A DNA stretch of 24,000 nucleotides from an uncultured Clostridiaceae bacterium (GTDB lineage: Bacteria > Bacillota > Clostridia > Clostridiales > Clostridiaceae), in NCBI GenBank assembly GCA_963780135.1, contig CAWAAR010000003.1, positions 3,709,701 to 3,733,700 of the forward strand, given 5' to 3'. The position numbers and the translations under genes were made by a program. Every line of letters starts with the position of its first letter. The stretch's first letter is position 1. Below the pieces are notes generated by a model that made no database searches, had not been told where the DNA came from, and saw only the letters and a list, made by a program, of their open reading frames with translations. Shown piece by piece: positions 6,095 through 11,808 of this stretch.

Positions 6095-7222
6095 TTAGTC
6101 AGTAATATTAGGTAAAGTGAAATATACTGTTGCTCCTTCATTTAATTTACCCTCAATCCAAGTTTTTCCTCCATGCTTTTGAACTATTTTACGAACAGCA
6201 GCAAGTCCTATTCCACTCCCCTCAAATTCATCTGAGGAATGTAAACGCTCAAATATTCGAAATAATTTTCCTGAGAACTCCATATCAATACCCACACCAT
6301 TATCCTTTACATAGAAAACATACTCACTAACACCTCTTTTGCATCCAGCAATTATAAGTGCTTTTTCTCTATTTCCAGTAAATTTTATGGCATTGGAAAT
6401 TATATTATAAATTACTTGTTTTATCATAATTACATCTGCAAAAACAAGAGGCATTCCTGTTTCAAATTCAAATTCAATGGCTCTTTTTGAATAAATTGAT
6501 TTAAGTTCTTTAAAAGCCGAAGTGAACATTTCACTTATATTTACACTTTCTTTGCATATCTCTAGACGATTAGTTGTTGAATATTGTAGTAATTTTCCAA
6601 CCATAGTAATCATATCTCTACATATATCTTTTATATTAGAAACCATTTCACTAGCATCTTTATCTAGTAATGTCCTATAATCTTCAAGAATTATTTTGCT
6701 GTATCCTTGAATAGCCCTTAAGGGTGATTTTAAATCATGAGACACAGTATATGAAAAAGATTCAAGTTCATTAACAGCAGCTTCAAGCTCTAATTTTTTT
6801 TCTTCAAGAATTTCATTGCGCTGTGCTAACTCATACTGAGCAAGCTTCAACGACAAATGAGTATGTACCCTAGCTTTAACTTCAAGAATTTCAAAAGGTT
6901 TAGTTATATAGTCAACAGCACCTAATTCAAAACATTTTGTTTTACTGATTATATCTGTCATGGCAGTTAAAAAAATTATAGGTATGTCTTTTGCTAATTT
7001 ATTTTCTTTGATTCTCTTACATACTTCATATCCATCCATAATAGGCATCATAATATCTAATAAAATTATATCTGGAATCTCTATTTCTAAACTTTCTAAT
7101 GCAGATTTTCCATCCGTTGCAACTGAAATTTCATAATCATCACCAAAAGCTTCTACAAGAATATCAATATTTTCTTCTGTATCATCAACAATCAGCACTG
7201 TACACTCTGAAAGTTCTTTCAT
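6095..7222 (-). CDS. REC-histidine kinase (N-terminal receiver, coiled coil, HisKA, HATPase_c)
   Basis: REC: VLIVDDTEENIDIL, IILLDIMMPIMDG, FLTAMTD, ITKPF. HisKA H-box: SFSYTVSHDLKSPLRAIQGY. HATPase: ISNAIKFT, DNGVGID, GSGIGLAAVRKIVQKHGG. The ATG at 7222 overlaps the upstream stop (TAATG), indicating translational coupling. Confidence 0.9.
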   Translation of the reverse strand: MKELSECTVLIVDDTEENIDILVEAFGDDYEISVATDGKSALESLEIEIPDIILLDIMMPIMDGYEVCKRIKENKLAKDIPIIFLTAMTDIISKTKCFELGAVDYITKPFEILEVKARVHTHLSLKLAQYELAQRNEILEEKKLELEAAVNELESFSYTVSHDLKSPLRAIQGYSKIILEDYRTLLDKDASEMVSNIKDICRDMITMVGKLLQYSTTNRLEICKESVNISEMFTSAFKELKSIYSKRAIEFEFETGMPLVFADVIMIKQVIYNIISNAIKFTGNREKALIIAGCKRGVSEYVFYVKDNGVGIDMEFSGKLFRIFERLHSSDEFEGSGIGLAAVRKIVQKHGGKTWIEGKLNEGATVYFTLPNITD

Positions 7223-9519
7223 TATATTTCCTCCCCTTTAAGATTATTCATTAATACTTCAAGTATATCAAGTGCTTCCTTAAATTTATATTTCAAAACA
7301 AACCTCTCAATTTCTGCAGCATTTTTTTGGATTTCTACCGGCCATACTAATTTTCTATATTCTTTCATAACTTCAGCACATTTTTTAGGTTTTCGAGTTT
7401 TCAAATAAGGTTTAAGCTCATTCATAATTTTTAATATTTCATTTTTGGATGAAACATTACCAGTTACCATAGCCACCTGCTCATCTTCTGGAAGTACACT
7501 TTCAAGAGCTTTTATCATTTTACTAAGCATAACACTTGTCTCTCTCAACATGGTGTTAAGTATATCAGAAGAAATCCTTTTTTTAATGGCCTCTTCTAAA
7601 CTAGCTGCCTTTTCCTGAATAACCACAGCACCAATAGTTCCAGATACCCCCTTTAAAGTGTGCGCAATACGTTCTGCAGTAAGAAAGTCCCCCTCTGAAA
7701 TCACTTTTTCAATTTGCATAATTGCATCCTTTTGTCCTAACACATATTTTTTCAATAAATTTATATATGATTTTTTCTTTCCAAGTACCCTTCTTAACCC
7801 AAGTGATGTATCAAGTCCAGGAATGCCTACTACAAAGTCATCTGAACATGTATTTACTGAAGCTTTAAATTTTACTTTTTCAGTACTTACTTTTCTAAAT
7901 GGAATCCATTTTAAAAGTATTGAAAACAACTGATTAGGATCTATAGGTTTAGATATATAATCATTCATACCTGCTTGTATACACTTATTCTGATCATTGG
8001 TCATTACATTAGCAGTCATTGCAATAATAGGTAATGCTAATCTCTTTATATTTCTTCTAATTTCTTTTGTTGCTGTTACACCATCCATTACTGGCATCTG
8101 CATGTCCATAAGTACAATATCGTATTTATTCTCCCTAACTTTATCCACTGCAATTTTTCCATTTTTAGCAAAATCTATTGAAAACTCGCCTTCTTGTAAT
8201 AGGTCAACTGCAACCTGCACATTTAGTTCATTATCTTCCACTAATAATATCCGGGCTCCACTGATTACTGTAAGAGATTCATTGTTTTTTAAAGGTTCAT
8301 CCATCTTTTGTGTTGCTTTACCAATACCAAGTTTTGCAGTAAACCAAAAAGTACTTCCTATTCCAAGTTCAGTTTCAACTCCAACCTGGCCTTCCATTAG
8401 AGTTGCCAATTCTTTAGAAATAGCAAGCCCCAGACCTGTACCTCCATACTTTCTAGTTATAGAAGTATCGGCCTGTTGAAAGGATTGAAAAAGTTCACCT
8501 TTTTGTTCTTCAGTCATACCAAGTCCTGTATCCTGAACCTCAAACTTTATTACACACTGATCAAGTAATTCTTCTTCTTTGCGAATTCTTACAACTATTT
8601 GTCCTTTTTCAGTGAATTTAACTGCATTGCTTACATAATTAATAAGAATTTGTCCTACTCTTAAGGGATCACCGCATAAATTCTTTGGTAATTCAGTATC
8701 TAAATCAAAGATTAGTTGAAGACCCTTTGAAGCACATTTGTCACCAATAAGATTTTCTAGATTATCTAGTACCTCAGCCAGTTTAAAACTGGTTTTCTCA
8801 ATTTTAAGCTTTCCTGCTTCGATTTTAGAAAAGTCCAATATATCATTTATTACACCTAACAAATGCTGATTGGATTGGGATATCTTGTTAATATAATCCC
8901 TTTGTTTGGTATTTAGATCTGTTTTTTCAATTAAATAAGTCATTCCCATAATAGCATTTATTGGAGTTCGAATTTCATGACTCATATTTGCTAAAAAATC
9001 CGACTTCGTTTTAGCAGCCTCCTCAGCACGTTCCTTAGCATCCCTTAATTCTTCTGCTTGTACTAGCAATTTATCATTCTTTTTTTTAAGCTCAACCATA
9101 AGTTCTTGTCTTGATGGTATGGATAGTACTTTTTTTAACTCTTCTATTTCTTCTTTACTAATAGAAAATTTCATATCTTTTATGTAAGAAAATGCTTCTA
9201 TAATTAATGAATTATCCTCTAATTTCCTTATAAAGTAATTATCAAAAATTTCATTACCAAATTCAAGATTCTCTTTAGTTACTATTTTCGATAATTTAAA
9301 TAATAAAGCTTTTTTTTCATATATATCTGTTATAAAAATTGAAATCAGTATATCTTTATTATTGCAATAACATCTACGACATATTTCCGATATAGCAACT
9401 TCAATTCTTGTGGTTTTTATATCAGTATACCCAAAGCTTGTAACTAGTCCTCGTATTTTCTTTCTAGCTTCAATTATAGAATCGATGTTCATTATTTTGA
9501 GAATGCCTAATTCAATCAT
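7222..9519 (-). CDS. Soluble hybrid sensor histidine kinase: unassigned ~135-aa N-terminal domain, coiled coil, HisKA, HATPase_c, REC, Hpt
   Basis: H-box FLANMSHEIRTPINAI (His181). HATPase: VSNAVKFT, QDTGLGM, GGTGLGLAISKELATLMEG. REC: ILLVEDNELN, DIVLMDMQMPVMDG, AMTANV, ISKPI. Hpt: AHTLKGVSGTIGA. No hydrophobic TM stretch is visible. AAGAGGT lies 8 nt before ATG 9519, and the start is 22 nt after the rsbX-like stop. Confidence 0.9.
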   Translation of the reverse strand: MIELGILKIMNIDSIIEARKKIRGLVTSFGYTDIKTTRIEVAISEICRRCYCNNKDILISIFITDIYEKKALLFKLSKIVTKENLEFGNEIFDNYFIRKLEDNSLIIEAFSYIKDMKFSISKEEIEELKKVLSIPSRQELMVELKKKNDKLLVQAEELRDAKERAEEAAKTKSDFLANMSHEIRTPINAIMGMTYLIEKTDLNTKQRDYINKISQSNQHLLGVINDILDFSKIEAGKLKIEKTSFKLAEVLDNLENLIGDKCASKGLQLIFDLDTELPKNLCGDPLRVGQILINYVSNAVKFTEKGQIVVRIRKEEELLDQCVIKFEVQDTGLGMTEEQKGELFQSFQQADTSITRKYGGTGLGLAISKELATLMEGQVGVETELGIGSTFWFTAKLGIGKATQKMDEPLKNNESLTVISGARILLVEDNELNVQVAVDLLQEGEFSIDFAKNGKIAVDKVRENKYDIVLMDMQMPVMDGVTATKEIRRNIKRLALPIIAMTANVMTNDQNKCIQAGMNDYISKPIDPNQLFSILLKWIPFRKVSTEKVKFKASVNTCSDDFVVGIPGLDTSLGLRRVLGKKKSYINLLKKYVLGQKDAIMQIEKVISEGDFLTAERIAHTLKGVSGTIGAVVIQEKAASLEEAIKKRISSDILNTMLRETSVMLSKMIKALESVLPEDEQVAMVTGNVSSKNEILKIMNELKPYLKTRKPKKCAEVMKEYRKLVWPVEIQKNAAEIERFVLKYKFKEALDILEVLMNNLKGEEI

Positions 9520-9541
9520 TTTAACTTACCTCTTTAAAGTT

Positions 9542-10985: not shown

Positions 10986-10995
10986 AGCATCTTCC

Positions 10996-11808
10996 TTATA
11001 ATTCTTTTTTATGTTTCACTTCTAAATTAAGTATTGAAAAAGCTTCAGCCAAGGCATCGCTTAAAGTAGCCTTTGTTTTTATGCTTTCCATGTCAATTCC
11101 TAGTTCAATAATAGTTTGTGCCACTGCTGGAGATATCCCAGAAATTATACATTCACAGCCCATAAGTTTTGTAGCCTTCGTTATTTTAATAAGATGATTT
11201 GCTACAGCAGTATCTACAGCAGCAACCCCATGAATATCCATTATTATAACTTTAGAATATGTTTCCATTATTTTGTTTAGCATACTTTCCATCATATGCT
11301 GTGCTCTCATAGAATCAACCACACCTACAACCGGAAGAACCAGAACTCCTTCCCATAATTCTATAGTCGGTGTTGACATCTCACGTATGGTTTGGCTTTG
11401 TTCCCTTACTCTTTCTTCATATTGAACTCTTTCCATTATATCAATGATAAACTCAAGACCTCCAATTATATTATCATTTTCATCTTTTAAAGGAACAGAA
11501 AAATATTCCATAGGCATTTTCAAGTTATTAATTGTTACTTCATTTCGTGCAGAACACATTTTTCCACTTTCAATAGCTTTAATCATACAACACTGCTCCG
11601 TATTACAATGCAATGAATTAAAAAGGTCACAACACCTTTTGCCTAAAATGTCCTCCTTGCTTTTCTTTACAGTTTTTTGTCCCGCCTTATTTATATAAGT
11701 TACTCTTAATTCTTTATCCACTGCCATTACTGTAGTTGGTATTTGATCAAGAATCTGCATTTTTATCGTACTATTTGCTTCCTCAAAATTTTCAGTGATA
11801 TTATCCAT
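10996..11808 (-). CDS. rsbR: RsbR-like stressosome sensor: Cys-rich PAS domain plus C-terminal STAS
   Basis: 270 aa. The linker/STAS block TPTIELWEGVLVLPVVGVVDSMRAQ...IIMDIHGVAAVDTAVANHL...ISGISPAVAQTIIELG is typical of RsbR paralogues. Thr200 (in VDT) and Thr232 (in AQT) sit in the motif contexts of the two RsbT-target threonines of B. subtilis RsbRA. The N-terminal PAS (LDQIPTTVMAVDKELRVTYINKAG...) carries CC-x6-HC-x4-CC-x10-C. AGGAGGAAAAG precedes ATG 11808. Confidence 0.8.
   Translation of the reverse strand: MDNITENFEEANSTIKMQILDQIPTTVMAVDKELRVTYINKAGQKTVKKSKEDILGKRCCDLFNSLHCNTEQCCMIKAIESGKMCSARNEVTINNLKMPMEYFSVPLKDENDNIIGGLEFIIDIMERVQYEERVREQSQTIREMSTPTIELWEGVLVLPVVGVVDSMRAQHMMESMLNKIMETYSKVIIMDIHGVAAVDTAVANHLIKITKATKLMGCECIISGISPAVAQTIIELGIDMESIKTKATLSDALAEAFSILNLEVKHKKEL

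What the first reader, a model, noticed from the sequence alone, without database searches (positions are those of the whole stretch)
6095..11808. Stressosome-type RsbR-RsbS-RsbT-RsbX operon feeding a histidine-kinase phosphorelay instead of a sigma-B partner switch
Seen in the sequence. Four consecutive minus-strand genes are separated by 10-26 nt or overlap:
- a PAS+STAS protein with an RsbR-type linker (TPTIELWEGVLVLPVVGVVDS), Thr200 in VDT and Thr232 in AQT;
- a 122-aa STAS-only protein with Ser63 in GMDSY;
- a 153-aa GHKL Ser/Thr kinase (ELSTNIIRYA, DNGPGI, GLGLPSVKR);
- a PP2C phosphatase.
This is the gene order and domain content of the B. subtilis stressosome module. Nowhere in the 24 kb is there an RsbU, RsbV, RsbW or sigma-factor gene. 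Instead, 22 nt after rsbX comes a TM-less hybrid kinase (HisKA-HATPase-REC-Hpt). Its stop overlaps (TAATG) the start of a REC-HisKA-HATPase protein.

Established knowledge. Comparative genomics has noted RsbRST modules with non-sigB outputs, namely a two-component type in Vibrio vulnificus and a GGDEF type in Moorella thermoacetica. As far as I know, how RsbT passes a signal to a histidine kinase has not been resolved.

Inference. This locus is a stressosome whose output is a multi-step phosphorelay. The relay branches to c-di-GMP hydrolysis, a second kinase, an AraC-type regulator and chemoreceptors.
Basis: partly seen in the sequence, partly recalled or inferred. Interest (0 to 1): 0.8.

Follow-up and report, generated by a model that had tools for sequence, protein, structure and literature searches.

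The report
Stressosome operon wired to histidine kinases
This is a real stressosome-type sensing operon (RsbR-RsbS-RsbT-RsbX) joined to a histidine-kinase relay, a kind already known from Vibrio, but its first kinase starts with an unannotated, catalytically dead copy of RsbT that may be the missing connector between the two systems.

Summary
Six minus-strand genes (11808 to 6095) encode:
- PAS-STAS RsbR (Thr200, Thr232)
- STAS-only RsbS (Ser63)
- GHKL kinase RsbT
- PP2C phosphatase RsbX
- a soluble hybrid kinase, HK1 (HisKA-HATPase-REC-Hpt)
- a REC-HisKA-HATPase kinase, HK2

Gaps are 10, 26, -13, 22 and -1 nt. No sigma factor, RsbU, RsbV or RsbW lies in the 24 kb.

The architecture is not new. 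It is the "RSTX module plus two-component output" type described for Vibrio vulnificus (RsbRSTX-D1-D2).

They match no Pfam, NCBIfam or PDB sequence, yet:
- they fold (pLDDT 92) like RsbW/SpoIIAB;
- they are homologous to the N-terminal half of RsbT (hhalign 93.7%);
- the ATP lid is deleted and the Mg-ATP asparagine is replaced.

This "N-dom" heads the gene directly after rsbX in 32 of 32 informative metagenome loci, including Vibrio D1-like kinases. Elsewhere it is fused to PP2C, cyclase or GGDEF outputs.

I infer that N-dom is the stressosome-coupling domain. The relay would then pass from HK1 to HK2 and a REC-HD-GYP regulator, whose receivers are 83% identical, and from HK2 to a REC-AraC regulator. 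A link to the chemoreceptors is unsupported.

The parts
11876..11904 (-). Promoter-like site (TTGAGA, 17 nt, TG-TATATT) 68 nt upstream of the rsbR start
   Evidence: Consensus scan, 10 of 12 matches with an extended -10 TG. Computational only.
10996..11808 (-). rsbR: PAS sensor plus STAS. Phospho-acceptor Thr200 and Thr232.
   Evidence: Pfam PAS_4 and STAS. The STAS half is 53% identical to V. vulnificus RsbR 7O0I_B, E 3.4e-48. Residues checked.
11590..11637 (-). Conserved Cys/His motif in the RsbR PAS domain (C58, H66, C67, C72, C73). Candidate metal, Fe-S or redox site.
   Evidence: Conserved in 5 of 6 PAS-type RsbR proteins from N-dom loci. Function is inferred.
10617..10985 (-). rsbS: STAS-only scaffold with Ser63
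   Evidence: Pfam STAS. Best PDB hits are Listeria, B. subtilis and V. vulnificus RsbS. Ser63 aligns with the DS serine of B. subtilis and Listeria RsbS.
10129..10590 (-). rsbT: GHKL Ser/Thr switch kinase with intact N box (N66), G1 (D97-G101) and G2 (G121-G123)
   Evidence: Pfam HATPase_c and HATPase_c_2. SpoIIAB is the best PDB hit. Motifs are invariant in 7 RsbT orthologues.
9542..10141 (-). rsbX: single-domain PP2C feedback phosphatase. The real start is probably the ATG at 10129 (195 aa).
   Evidence: Pfam SpoIIE. Moorella MtX 3ZT9 at E 8e-25 and B. subtilis RsbX 3W40 at 6.5e-11. Start codon evidence.
7222..9519 (-). HK1: soluble hybrid histidine kinase (N-dom, coiled-coil, HisKA H181, HATPase, REC D472, Hpt H620)
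   Evidence: Pfam. Phospho-site motifs intact. No TM segment.
9076..9519 (-). N-dom (HK1 residues 1-148): RsbT/RsbW-fold pseudokinase domain plus a conserved helical linker. Proposed stressosome-coupling domain.
   Evidence: No Pfam, NCBIfam or PDB sequence hit. AF2 pLDDT 92.1. The Foldseek top 19 PDB hits are all RsbW, SpoIIAB or UsfX. hhalign against an RsbT profile gives 93.7%, E 1.9e-7. It follows rsbX in 32 of 32 informative loci.
8812..9006 (-). HK1 HisKA (DHp) domain, residues 172-236
   Evidence: Pfam 1.4e-21
8329..8673 (-). HK1 catalytic HATPase_c domain, residues 283-397
   Evidence: Pfam 5.3e-25. N, G1 and G2 boxes present.
7918..8250 (-). HK1 receiver domain, residues 424-534 (D472)
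   Evidence: Pfam 1e-28
7549..7725 (-). HK1 Hpt domain, residues 599-657 (H620)
   Evidence: Pfam 1.9e-8
6095..7222 (-). HK2: REC-controlled histidine kinase (REC D56, HisKA H162, HATPase). Its start overlaps the HK1 stop (TAATG).
   Evidence: Pfam. Its REC is 83% identical to that of the REC-HD-GYP protein. Same architecture as LvrB (PMC13269768).
4817..5923 (-). REC-AraC response regulator (D56). Likely cognate regulator of HK2.
   Evidence: Pfam. The HK2/REC-AraC pair stays adjacent but relocates upstream of rsbR in Clostridium MAG locus L002.
12207..13337 (+). REC-HD-GYP response regulator (D60, HD 219-220, GYP 287-289), divergent from rsbR. Equivalent to V. vulnificus D2 (c-di-GMP phosphodiesterase).
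   Evidence: Pfam Response_reg plus HD_5. NCBIfam NosR-type c-di-GMP PDE. REC-HD-GYP follows the N-dom kinase in L003, L011, L013-L020 and L058.

Best explanation
The locus is a Vibrio-type RSTX stressosome module in a low-GC, Clostridium-like genome, and its output is a multi-step phosphorelay.

Shown by homology: RsbR (a PAS sensor with a conserved Cys4/His motif) and RsbS are close homologues of proteins that form the STAS-domain stressosome core. RsbT is an intact Ser/Thr switch kinase. RsbX is the feedback PP2C.

Inferred, coupling step: the signal reaches HK1 through HK1's first 148 residues. This domain is a catalytically dead, ATP-lid-less copy of RsbT (N-dom) followed by a conserved helical linker (S-R-x-E-L...K-N-x-x-L) that runs into the DHp coiled coil. 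The most likely mechanism is that RsbT, once released from the stressosome, binds the paired N-doms and linker of the HK1 dimer. GHKL partner-switching kinases are dimers, so a paralogue heterodimer is plausible. This would reset the coiled coil and switch autophosphorylation, just as RsbT binding to RsbU_N and its linker switches RsbU.

Inferred, relay: phosphoryl groups pass H181 to D472 to H620 within HK1. From the Hpt they go to two nearly identical receivers. One is on the REC-HD-GYP protein (c-di-GMP hydrolysis). The other is on HK2, a REC-controlled kinase of the LvrB type. HK2 in turn phosphorylates the REC-AraC regulator (transcription).
For: Identity of the module:
- Pfam and PDB homology of all four Rsb proteins, with acceptor Ser/Thr and catalytic motifs conserved.

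N-dom is an RsbT/RsbW-fold domain:
- AF2 gives pLDDT 92.1 and pTM 0.86 with a 57-sequence alignment.
- The Foldseek top 19 PDB hits are exclusively RsbW, SpoIIAB or UsfX, for example 6M36 at E 5.7e-5 and target TM 0.80.
- hhalign of the N-dom profile against an RsbT profile gives 93.7%, E 1.9e-7 over 70 columns.
- The N-dom HMM also picks up genuine RsbT ORFs, at E down to 5e-8.

N-dom is catalytically dead:
- The N-box Asn is replaced (Arg48 in HK1; Arg in most of the displayed A2 sequences, by eye) and the G1-lid-G2 segment is missing.

N-dom is tied to the stressosome:
- The N-dom gene directly follows rsbR-S-T-X in the window, in Clostridium MAG L002, and in L003, L004, L005/6, L007/8, L010 and L011.
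- It does so in 32 of 32 informative loci (23 distinct proteins) retrieved with the RsbR STAS domain.
- These include D1-like kinases next to RsbR proteins 87-94% identical to V. vulnificus RsbR. hhalign of their N-termini against N-dom gives 99%, E 2.2e-18.

N-dom is modular:
- It is fused to HisKA kinases, PP2C, PP2C plus HATPase_c_2, class III cyclases, GGDEF-EAL and GGDEF-HD-GYP.
- In L062 an N-dom-PP2C protein sits right after rsbT, the position RsbU holds in B. subtilis.

Relay:
- All phospho-acceptor His and Asp residues are intact.
- The HK2 and HD-GYP receivers are 83% identical, against 32-36% for other receiver pairs.
- HK2 and REC-AraC remain adjacent after rearrangement in L002.

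Precedents:
- RsbT acts through an N-terminal domain plus linker in RsbU, and the authors propose that this generalises to kinases and cyclases (PMC12143880).
- rsbX and D1 are co-transcribed in V. vulnificus (PMC10436020).
- The REC-controlled kinase mechanism is established for LvrB (PMC13269768).
Against: - No protein-protein interaction was or could be computed here.
- Heinz et al. 2022 failed to detect an RsbT-D1 interaction by bacterial two-hybrid in V. vulnificus. A stable RsbT/N-dom complex is therefore not established and may not exist.
- The Vibrio D1 N-termini are divergent. Single-HMM E-values are only 3e-4 to 2e-8, and I did not test VV2_0077 itself.
- One N-dom protein (L012, N-dom-PAS-V4R) has no RSTX neighbour.
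- Phosphotransfer partners are inferred from adjacency and receiver similarity only.
- Transcript structure is inferred from spacing and from the absence of predicted terminators.
- Whether the genome has sigB, rsbU, rsbV or rsbW elsewhere could not be checked.
Confidence: 0.6

Rival explanations
1. Direct docking. N-dom keeps the STAS-binding face of its RsbT ancestor and binds RsbS or RsbR itself. HK1 would then be a stressosome-bound client, competing with RsbT or sitting beside it. It would be released or activated when RsbT phosphorylates RsbS Ser63 or RsbR Thr200/Thr232, with RsbX resetting the system.
For: - N-dom has the fold of kinases whose defining partners are STAS proteins. The top structural hits are RsbW-RsbV, SpoIIAB-SpoIIAA and UsfX-RsfB complexes.
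- Helix alpha-1 carries the only invariant residue of the family, Arg19, with Lys21 close behind. From my own knowledge, this aligns with SpoIIAB Arg20, which is needed for binding SpoIIAA. That is a lead, not a test.
- This model would explain the negative RsbT-D1 two-hybrid result in V. vulnificus.
Against: - The ATP lid is deleted in N-dom. From my own knowledge, it contributes to STAS contacts in SpoIIAB-SpoIIAA.
- RsbT remains fully conserved and catalytically intact in all these operons. That fits both models but makes a second STAS binder less necessary.
- In L062 N-dom-PP2C occupies the RsbU position. This argues for equivalence to RsbU_N, which is an RsbT receiver.
Confidence: 0.2
2. 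Transient phosphorylation. RsbT controls HK1 by phosphorylating a Ser or Thr of HK1 in a hit-and-run reaction, as Heinz et al. 2022 suggested. N-dom would be only the substrate or docking surface, or merely a dimerisation domain.
For: - RsbT keeps all kinase motifs.
- The authors of the V. vulnificus study proposed this to explain their negative two-hybrid result.
- N-dom and its linker carry conserved hydroxyl residues. Ser44 is nearly invariant, and Ser or Thr at position 136 sits in the S/T-R/K-x-E-L motif.
Against: - Ser44 corresponds to the structural Ser of the S-E-L-x-x-N helix shared with RsbT, so its conservation needs no phosphorylation.
- The known RsbT target context (D-S/T within a STAS fold) is absent.
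- From established knowledge, RsbT activates RsbU by binding and its kinase activity is not required for that step.
Confidence: 0.12
3. Neighbours only. The rsbRSTX genes and the kinases are adjacent but functionally separate, and RsbT acts on a target elsewhere, for example an RsbU/SigB cascade encoded outside the window.
For: - No experiment links them in this organism.
- The rest of the genome was not available.
- The window is rich in unrelated signalling genes.
Against: - The N-dom gene follows rsbX in 32 of 32 informative loci across distant taxa.
- The gaps are 22 nt and -1 nt, with no terminator predicted.
- The kinase's N-terminus is itself derived from RsbT.
- In V. vulnificus rsbX and D1 are co-transcribed and co-regulated.
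Confidence: 0.05

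Closest known systems
Vibrio vulnificus stressosome locus VvRsbR-S-T-X plus VvD1 (hybrid sensor kinase, VV2_0077) and VvD2 (c-di-GMP phosphodiesterase regulator); Heinz et al. 2022, Cutugno et al. 2023
   Same: - RSTX gene order, with rsbX directly after rsbT.
- A soluble hybrid histidine kinase a few bases downstream.
- A REC-HD-GYP partner.
- The RsbR STAS half is 53% identical (E 3.4e-48).
- D1-like kinases next to RsbR proteins 87-94% identical to VvRsbR carry a divergent N-dom (hhalign 99%).
   Different: - The sensor is a PAS domain with a Cys4/His motif instead of a haem globin.
- HK1 lacks the PAS and the second REC of D1-like proteins.
- The REC-HD-GYP gene is divergently placed upstream of rsbR rather than downstream of the kinase.
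- There is an extra branch (REC-controlled HK2 plus REC-AraC).
- The host is Clostridium-like with 29% GC.
Bacillus subtilis / Listeria stressosome with RsbU-RsbV-RsbW-SigB output
   Same: RsbR, RsbS, RsbT and RsbX homologues with conserved phospho-acceptor Ser/Thr and kinase and phosphatase motifs. The logic is that an N-terminal adaptor domain on the output enzyme receives the signal.
   Different: No RsbU, RsbV, RsbW or SigB in the window. rsbX follows rsbT. The output adaptor is not the four-helix RsbU_N domain (PF08673 is not detected) but an alpha/beta RsbT-like pseudokinase domain. The output is His-Asp phosphotransfer.
Moorella thermoacetica MtR-MtS-MtT-MtX-MtG (stressosome controlling a GGDEF cyclase)
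   Same: RSTX order. RsbX is most similar to MtX (3ZT9, E 8e-25). The output is not SigB and is linked to c-di-GMP.
   Different: According to Baral et al. 2025, MtG uses an RsbU_N domain. Here the output enzyme is a histidine kinase with N-dom.
RsbW / SpoIIAB / RsbT GHKL partner-switching kinases (Pfam HATPase_c_2)
   Same: N-dom shares their fold and secondary-structure order (beta-alpha-alpha-beta-beta...beta-beta). It keeps the S-E helix signature and the alpha-1 arginine position.
   Different: N-dom lacks the N-box Asn, the G1 and G2 boxes and the whole ATP lid. It is fused to an output enzyme through a conserved helical linker. It falls below every Pfam and NCBIfam threshold.
Leptospira LvrA/LvrB (hybrid kinase feeding a REC-controlled histidine kinase)
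   Same: HK1 to HK2 has the same two-kinase layout. HK2 has the REC-HisKA-HATPase architecture, for which LvrB is the structural paradigm.
   Different: No stressosome input has been described for Lvr. LvrB's target is an anti-sigma factor (LvrC), whereas here it is probably a REC-AraC regulator. Sequence similarity is generic, well below the NCBIfam cut-off.

Membership tests
Stressosome RsbR-RsbS-RsbT(-RsbX) module | RsbR has a variable N-terminal sensor plus a C-terminal STAS domain with two conserved Thr (B. subtilis RsbRA T171 and T205 equivalents) | tested here: met
   PAS plus STAS. Thr200 (VDT) and Thr232 (AQT) align with the VDT and AQT threonines of Listeria and V. vulnificus RsbR.
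Stressosome RsbR-RsbS-RsbT(-RsbX) module | RsbS is a single STAS domain of about 120 aa with the conserved phospho-Ser (B. subtilis S59) | tested here: met
   122 aa, STAS only. Ser63 aligns with the DS serine of B. subtilis and Listeria RsbS.
Stressosome RsbR-RsbS-RsbT(-RsbX) module | RsbT is a small GHKL Ser/Thr kinase with N, G1 and G2 boxes, encoded after rsbS | tested here: met
   HATPase_c and HATPase_c_2. N66, DxGPG and GxGLP are invariant among 7 orthologues.
Stressosome RsbR-RsbS-RsbT(-RsbX) module | RsbX is a single-domain PP2C feedback phosphatase | tested here: met
   SpoIIE domain. Best PDB hits are MtX (8e-25) and B. subtilis RsbX (6.5e-11).
Stressosome RsbR-RsbS-RsbT(-RsbX) module | Assembly of RsbR and RsbS into a megadalton pseudo-icosahedral complex that sequesters RsbT | not testable with these tools
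   Inferred only from 53% identity of the STAS half to V. vulnificus RsbR, which was solved as a stressosome (7O0I).
Vibrio-type RSTX module with two-component output (Pane-Farre 2005; Heinz 2022) | rsbX lies immediately after rsbT, and a sensor or hybrid histidine kinase follows within a few bases on the same strand | tested here: met
   Overlap of 13 nt between rsbT and rsbX, and 22 nt between rsbX and HK1. The same layout occurs in L002, L003, L010, L011, L013-L025 and others.
Vibrio-type RSTX module with two-component output (Pane-Farre 2005; Heinz 2022) | A REC-HD-GYP (D2) response regulator partners the kinase | tested here: met
   Present at 12207-13337 with D60, HD and GYP motifs. It is divergent from rsbR rather than downstream of the kinase.
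Vibrio-type RSTX module with two-component output (Pane-Farre 2005; Heinz 2022) | Globin-coupled (haem) sensor domain in RsbR | tested here: not met
   The N-terminus is a PAS_4 domain with a Cys/His motif. Globin is a feature of the subgroup studied by Heinz et al., not of the RSTX class as a whole.
RsbU_N-dependent stressosome outputs (RsbU, MtG, some proteobacterial kinases) | An N-terminal four-helix RsbU_N domain (PF08673) on the output protein | tested here: not met
   No PF08673 hit even at E up to 10. The predicted fold is alpha/beta with five strands.
GHKL partner-switching kinases (RsbW/RsbT/SpoIIAB), considered for N-dom | Bergerat-type fold of the anti-sigma kinase subgroup | tested here: met
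   The Foldseek top 19 hits are all RsbW, SpoIIAB or UsfX. hhalign against RsbT gives 93.7%.
GHKL partner-switching kinases (RsbW/RsbT/SpoIIAB), considered for N-dom | ATP-binding N-box Asn and G1/G2 glycine boxes with an ATP lid | tested here: not met
   The Asn position is Arg48. The roughly 30-residue G1-lid-G2 segment of RsbT has no counterpart. N-dom is therefore a pseudokinase relative, not a catalytic member.
SigB partner-switching cascade (RsbU-RsbV-RsbW-SigB) | Genes for RsbU, RsbV, RsbW and a group-3 sigma factor linked to the module | tested here: not met
   None among the ORFs of 80 aa or more in the 24-kb window. The rest of the genome could not be searched.
REC-controlled histidine kinases (LvrB type), considered for HK2 | N-terminal receiver, helical linker, HisKA and HATPase_c, with an intact Asp and His | tested here: met
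   REC 9-119, HisKA 154-216, HATPase 263-371, D56 and H162.

The most novel reading that the evidence does not exclude
The 148-residue N-terminus of HK1 defines an unannotated domain family: an RsbT-derived pseudokinase with its ATP lid deleted, plus a conserved helical linker. This family would be the general adaptor through which RSTX-type stressosomes control histidine kinases, PP2C phosphatases, nucleotide cyclases and GGDEF proteins. That includes the V. vulnificus-type D1 kinase, where no RsbU_N domain and no RsbT interaction could be found. It would work either by pairing with released RsbT as a paralogue heterodimer, or by docking the output enzyme directly on RsbS/RsbR STAS domains.
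Probability: 0.45. Interest if true: 0.8.

Novelty: new member of a known kind. Interest (0 to 1): 0.6.

Why it matters
The operon as described is one more example of a class known since 2005 and studied in V. vulnificus, so on its own it is of modest interest.

Its value lies in what it exposes. The field has stated that most non-SigB stressosome outputs lack the RsbT-binding RsbU_N domain, and that how RsbT reaches a histidine kinase is unknown (Heinz 2022).

The RsbT-like pseudokinase domain found here sits at the head of every informative RSTX-linked output gene examined. This turns the open question into a defined experiment on one 148-residue domain, one invariant arginine, and three candidate partners (RsbT, RsbS and RsbR).

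It also suggests how partner-switching modules were plugged into two-component, c-di-GMP and cAMP signalling: by duplication and decay of the switch kinase.

The caveat is that I could not read Pane-Farre et al. 2005 or 2017. A conserved N-terminus may already have been noted there.

Tried and rejected
1. RsbU_N as the coupling domain. Rejected: no PF08673 hit at E up to 10, and the predicted fold is alpha/beta.
2. Single-sequence AF2 of HK1 residues 1-200. Uninformative, with pLDDT 50. Repeated with an alignment.
3. Word-index homologue searches with N-dom alone and with the 57-sequence alignment found nothing. The exhaustive HMMER search was needed.
With A4 it returned a single genome locus, a Clostridium sp. 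MAG, and did not recover the window's own genome. The organism is therefore only inferred to be Clostridium-like.
5. The HrmK (Nostoc) link suggested by an NCBIfam alignment that began at HK1 residue 36. Rejected: N-dom alone gives no NCBIfam hit.
6. Arg48, which replaces the N-box Asn, as a possible phospho-Ser reader. Not pursued: by eye it is Arg in most but not all of the displayed A2 sequences and is not conserved in the Vibrio D1-like subgroup.
7. A riboswitch or other RNA element in the 398-nt rsbR/HD-GYP intergenic region. No Rfam match anywhere in the window.
8. A direct test of V. vulnificus VV2_0077. The sequence was not obtainable. The closest reachable evidence is loci with 87-94% RsbR identity plus one partial protein annotated Vibrio sp..
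10. The hcyA-D partner-switching system of Nostoc. It has a different architecture and was not pursued.

Full report
**1. What is in the sequence**

The window has about 29% GC. On the minus strand between 11808 and 6095 lie six tightly packed genes. Pfam assigns them as follows:
- PAS plus STAS (270 aa)
- STAS only (122 aa)
- HATPase_c/HATPase_c_2 (153 aa)
- SpoIIE-type PP2C (199 aa)
- HisKA-HATPase_c-REC-Hpt (765 aa, called HK1 here)
- REC-HisKA-HATPase_c (375 aa, HK2)

The intergenic distances are 10, 26, -13, 22 and -1 nt. A promoter-like site with an extended -10 lies 68 nt upstream of rsbR. No credible terminator is predicted before the end of HK2. HK1 has no hydrophobic segment.

Pfam scans of every other ORF of 80 aa or more find no sigma factor, RsbU_N, RsbV or RsbW. 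Those ORFs include a REC-HD-GYP protein, a REC-AraC protein, two MCPs, a PAS-GGDEF protein and a second two-component pair. Rfam finds nothing.

One small correction: rsbX most likely starts at the ATG at 10129, giving 195 aa.

**2. Are these real stressosome genes?**

Yes, by homology to solved components.
- The C-terminal half of RsbR matches the V. vulnificus RsbR of the cryo-EM stressosome 7O0I at E 3.4e-48 (53% identity). It also matches Listeria RsbR at about 1e-27. Thr200 and Thr232 fall on the conserved VDT and AQT threonines.
- RsbS matches Listeria, B. subtilis, V. vulnificus and Moorella RsbS. Ser63 falls on the phospho-serine of the B. subtilis and Listeria proteins.
- RsbX is closest to Moorella MtX (8e-25) and B. 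subtilis RsbX.
- RsbT keeps the N, G1 and G2 boxes, which are invariant in seven orthologues.

Complex formation and kinase activity cannot be tested here.

**3. Is the architecture new?**

No. The contiguous R-S-T-X order followed within a few bases by signalling proteins is a described class. It is not the B. subtilis order.

Heinz et al. 2022 (PMC9237108) catalogue eleven downstream architectures. These include phosphorelays, and V. vulnificus RsbRSTX-D1-D2, where D1 is a hybrid sensor kinase with a PAS domain and D2 is a c-di-GMP phosphodiesterase regulator. Co-transcription of rsbX and D1 has been shown in V. vulnificus (PMC10436020).

The same paper states the open problem. Most downstream proteins, D1 included, have no RsbU_N domain, and no RsbT-D1 interaction was detected. 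Baral et al. 2025 (PMC12143880) explain RsbT action only for RsbU_N-bearing proteins.

**4. The overlooked feature: HK1 residues 1-148 (window 9076-9519)**

This stretch has no Pfam hit (best E 0.67, unrelated), no NCBIfam hit and no PDB sequence hit.

An exhaustive HMMER search of 1.84 billion representative proteins found 106 relatives at E of 1e-3 or better. The match is always at the extreme N-terminus.

With a 57-sequence alignment, AlphaFold2 gives a confident model (pLDDT 92.1, pTM 0.86). Its order of elements is beta-alpha-alpha-beta-beta-(alpha)-beta-beta, followed by two helices. Foldseek against the PDB returns RsbW, SpoIIAB and UsfX as the top 19 hits and nothing else of significance. 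The best is 6M36, at E 5.7e-5 and target TM 0.80.

Profile-profile comparison with RsbT proteins taken from the same operons gives 93.7% probability (E 1.9e-7). It aligns N-dom residues 6-75 with RsbT residues 23-94. The N-dom HMM also hits bona fide RsbT ORFs.

Relative to RsbT:
- the N-box Asn is replaced (Arg48 in HK1);
- the G1-lid-G2 segment is absent;
- the S-E helix signature and the C-terminal strands remain.

I therefore call it an RsbT-derived pseudokinase domain ("N-dom"). It ends in a conserved helical linker (S/T-R/K-x-E-L...K-N-x-x-L) that leads into the coiled coil of the output domain. Arg19 on helix alpha-1 is the only invariant residue. It stays invariant in the Vibrio subgroup.

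**5. Linkage of N-dom to the stressosome**

Direct look-ups of N-dom relatives gave these results.
- The N-dom gene lies immediately after PAS- or globin-STAS, STAS, HATPase_c_2 and SpoIIE genes in L003, L004, L005/6, L007/8, L010 and L011.
- The same is true in the Clostridium sp. MAG locus L002.
- One contig was too short to judge.
- One N-dom-PAS-V4R protein had no RSTX neighbour.

I then worked from the other side. A metagenome scan with the V. vulnificus/window RsbR STAS alignment returned 80 loci. Thirty-two of them extend at least 150 nt beyond rsbX. All 32 have an N-dom hit at the start of the next gene, representing 23 distinct proteins at 90% identity. L058 was excluded by my filter and confirmed by hand.

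Eight of those loci (L013-L016, L018-L021) have RsbR STAS domains 87-94% identical to V. vulnificus RsbR. The full-length kinases among them are about 1050-1060 aa, with the architecture N-terminus-PAS-HisKA-HATPase-REC-REC. Where the contig extends far enough, they are followed by REC-HD-GYP. This matches the published description of D1/D2.
- Their N-termini are divergent, with single-HMM E-values of 3e-4 to 2e-8.
- As a profile they match N-dom at 99% probability, E 2.2e-18, over 141 columns.
- A partial protein annotated Vibrio sp. belongs to the same subgroup.
- VV2_0077 itself could not be obtained.

**6. N-dom is a modular adaptor**

Across relatives it is fused to these outputs:
- HisKA kinases (64 of 73 scanned)
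- PP2C alone
- PAS-PP2C
- PP2C plus HATPase_c_2
- class III nucleotide cyclases
- GGDEF-EAL and PAS-GGDEF-HD-GYP

In L062 an N-dom-PP2C gene follows rsbT directly. That is the position and enzyme type of RsbU, with N-dom in place of RsbU_N. Named relatives come from Clostridium, Deltaproteobacteria MAGs, Niveibacterium and Vibrio. They are annotated only as "response regulator" or "hybrid sensor histidine kinase".

**7. The relay downstream**

All phospho-acceptor residues are intact:
- HK1: H181, D472 and Hpt H620
- HK2: D56 and H162
- REC-AraC: D56
- REC-HD-GYP: D60, with the HD and GYP motifs

The receiver of HK2 and that of the divergently encoded REC-HD-GYP protein are 83% identical over 121 residues, and 77% over 151 residues including the linker helix. 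All other receiver pairs are 32-36% identical. These two receivers are recent paralogues and most likely share a phosphodonor. The HK1 Hpt domain is the obvious candidate.

In L002 the HK2/REC-AraC pair has moved as a unit to a position upstream of rsbR, while RSTX-HK1 stays contiguous. This marks RSTX-HK1 as the conserved core and HK2 to REC-AraC as a cognate pair.

HK2 has the architecture of REC-controlled kinases. LvrB now provides a mechanism for that class: receiver phosphorylation induces a coiled coil that frees the catalytic domains (PMC13269768).

Nothing links the two MCPs or the PAS-GGDEF protein to the relay beyond proximity.

**8. Mechanism, with shown and inferred steps separated**

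Shown:
- the homology and motif integrity of all parts;
- the GHKL-like fold and RsbT homology of N-dom;
- the loss of the ATP-binding elements in N-dom;
- near-obligate synteny of N-dom with rsbRSTX;
- modular fusion of N-dom to different outputs.

Inferred:
- N-dom is the point at which the stressosome controls HK1.
- My preferred version is that released RsbT binds the paired N-doms and linker of the HK1 dimer and resets the coiled coil. This is analogous to RsbT acting on RsbU_N.
- The main rival is that N-dom docks on the RsbS/RsbR STAS domains itself. This would account for the negative RsbT-D1 two-hybrid result. Deletion of the lid counts against it.
- A hit-and-run phosphorylation model and a "neighbours only" model are less likely.

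**9. Novelty and verdict**

The locus is a new member, Clostridium-like with a PAS/Cys-type sensor, of the known RSTX-plus-two-component class. It has an extra REC-kinase/AraC branch.

The finding as written deserves moderate interest. The N-dom observation raises it, because it gives a concrete and testable answer to a question the field has declared open.

I found no description of this domain in Pfam, in NCBIfam or in the searchable literature. I could not read Pane-Farre et al. 2005 or 2017. They may already mention a conserved N-terminus.

Noticed in passing
window 11590-11637 (-), RsbR residues 58-73: The PAS domain of RsbR carries a motif C58-x7-H66-C67-x4-C72-C73, plus extra cysteines at 59 and 85. 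It is conserved in 5 of 6 PAS-type RsbR proteins from N-dom loci. It could bind an Fe-S cluster or metal and act as a redox or oxygen sensor, the anaerobe's counterpart of the haem globin in Vibrio RsbR.
   Followed up: partly
window 6848-7210 (-) and 12231-12596 (+): The receiver domains of HK2 and of the divergent REC-HD-GYP protein are 83% identical (77% over 151 aa including the linker helix). Other receivers in the locus are 32-36% identical. This looks like a recent duplication that grafted the D2 receiver onto a kinase.
   Followed up: yes
L002 2619-9708 (Clostridium sp. MAG DAIMMR010000023.1): The same gene set at 59-74% identity but rearranged. HK2 and REC-AraC lie upstream of rsbR, RSTX-HK1 stays contiguous, and no REC-HD-GYP gene lies in the 17.9 kb.
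   Followed up: yes
window 10129-10141 (-): The rsbX start is ambiguous. The ATG at 10141 (199 aa) has no Shine-Dalgarno sequence and overlaps rsbT by 13 nt. The ATG at 10129 (195 aa) abuts the rsbT stop and is the one used by gene callers on an identical contig.
   Followed up: partly
L012 5758-7461: An N-dom-PAS-V4R protein has no rsbRSTX genes nearby. It is followed by a V4R protein and a HAMP-PP2C protein. It is the only orphan N-dom context seen.
   Followed up: no
L062 711-2765: The order is STAS, RsbT, then an N-dom-PP2C protein, with no separate rsbX. N-dom-PP2C therefore occupies exactly the RsbU position of the B. subtilis operon.
   Followed up: partly
window 10129-10590 (-), RsbT residues 1-20: RsbT here and in L007 and L011 is 151-153 aa, with an N-terminal extension of about 20 residues that is absent from the 133-aa RsbT of L004 and L010. 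Both lengths occur with N-dom outputs.
   Followed up: no
window 395-4571 (-): Downstream of the REC-AraC gene lie a 4HB-HAMP MCP, a soluble PocR-MCP and a PAS-GGDEF cyclase. The neighbourhood is dense in chemotaxis and c-di-GMP genes, but nothing ties them to the relay. An MCP also lies after HK1 in L002.
   Followed up: partly
window 15936-16436 (-) and 19761-20618 (-): Two ORFs (166 and 285 aa) have no Pfam hit. The first lies next to a HAMP histidine kinase (16565-17986), and an OmpR-type regulator sits at 22396-23079.
   Followed up: no
L013-L021, D1-like kinases: The N-dom HMM also gives a weak second match (HMM positions 38-99) around residues 416-483 of these D1-like kinases. I take this to be the start of their own catalytic HATPase domain, which would be consistent with N-dom being a GHKL derivative, but I did not map the domain boundaries.
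   Followed up: no
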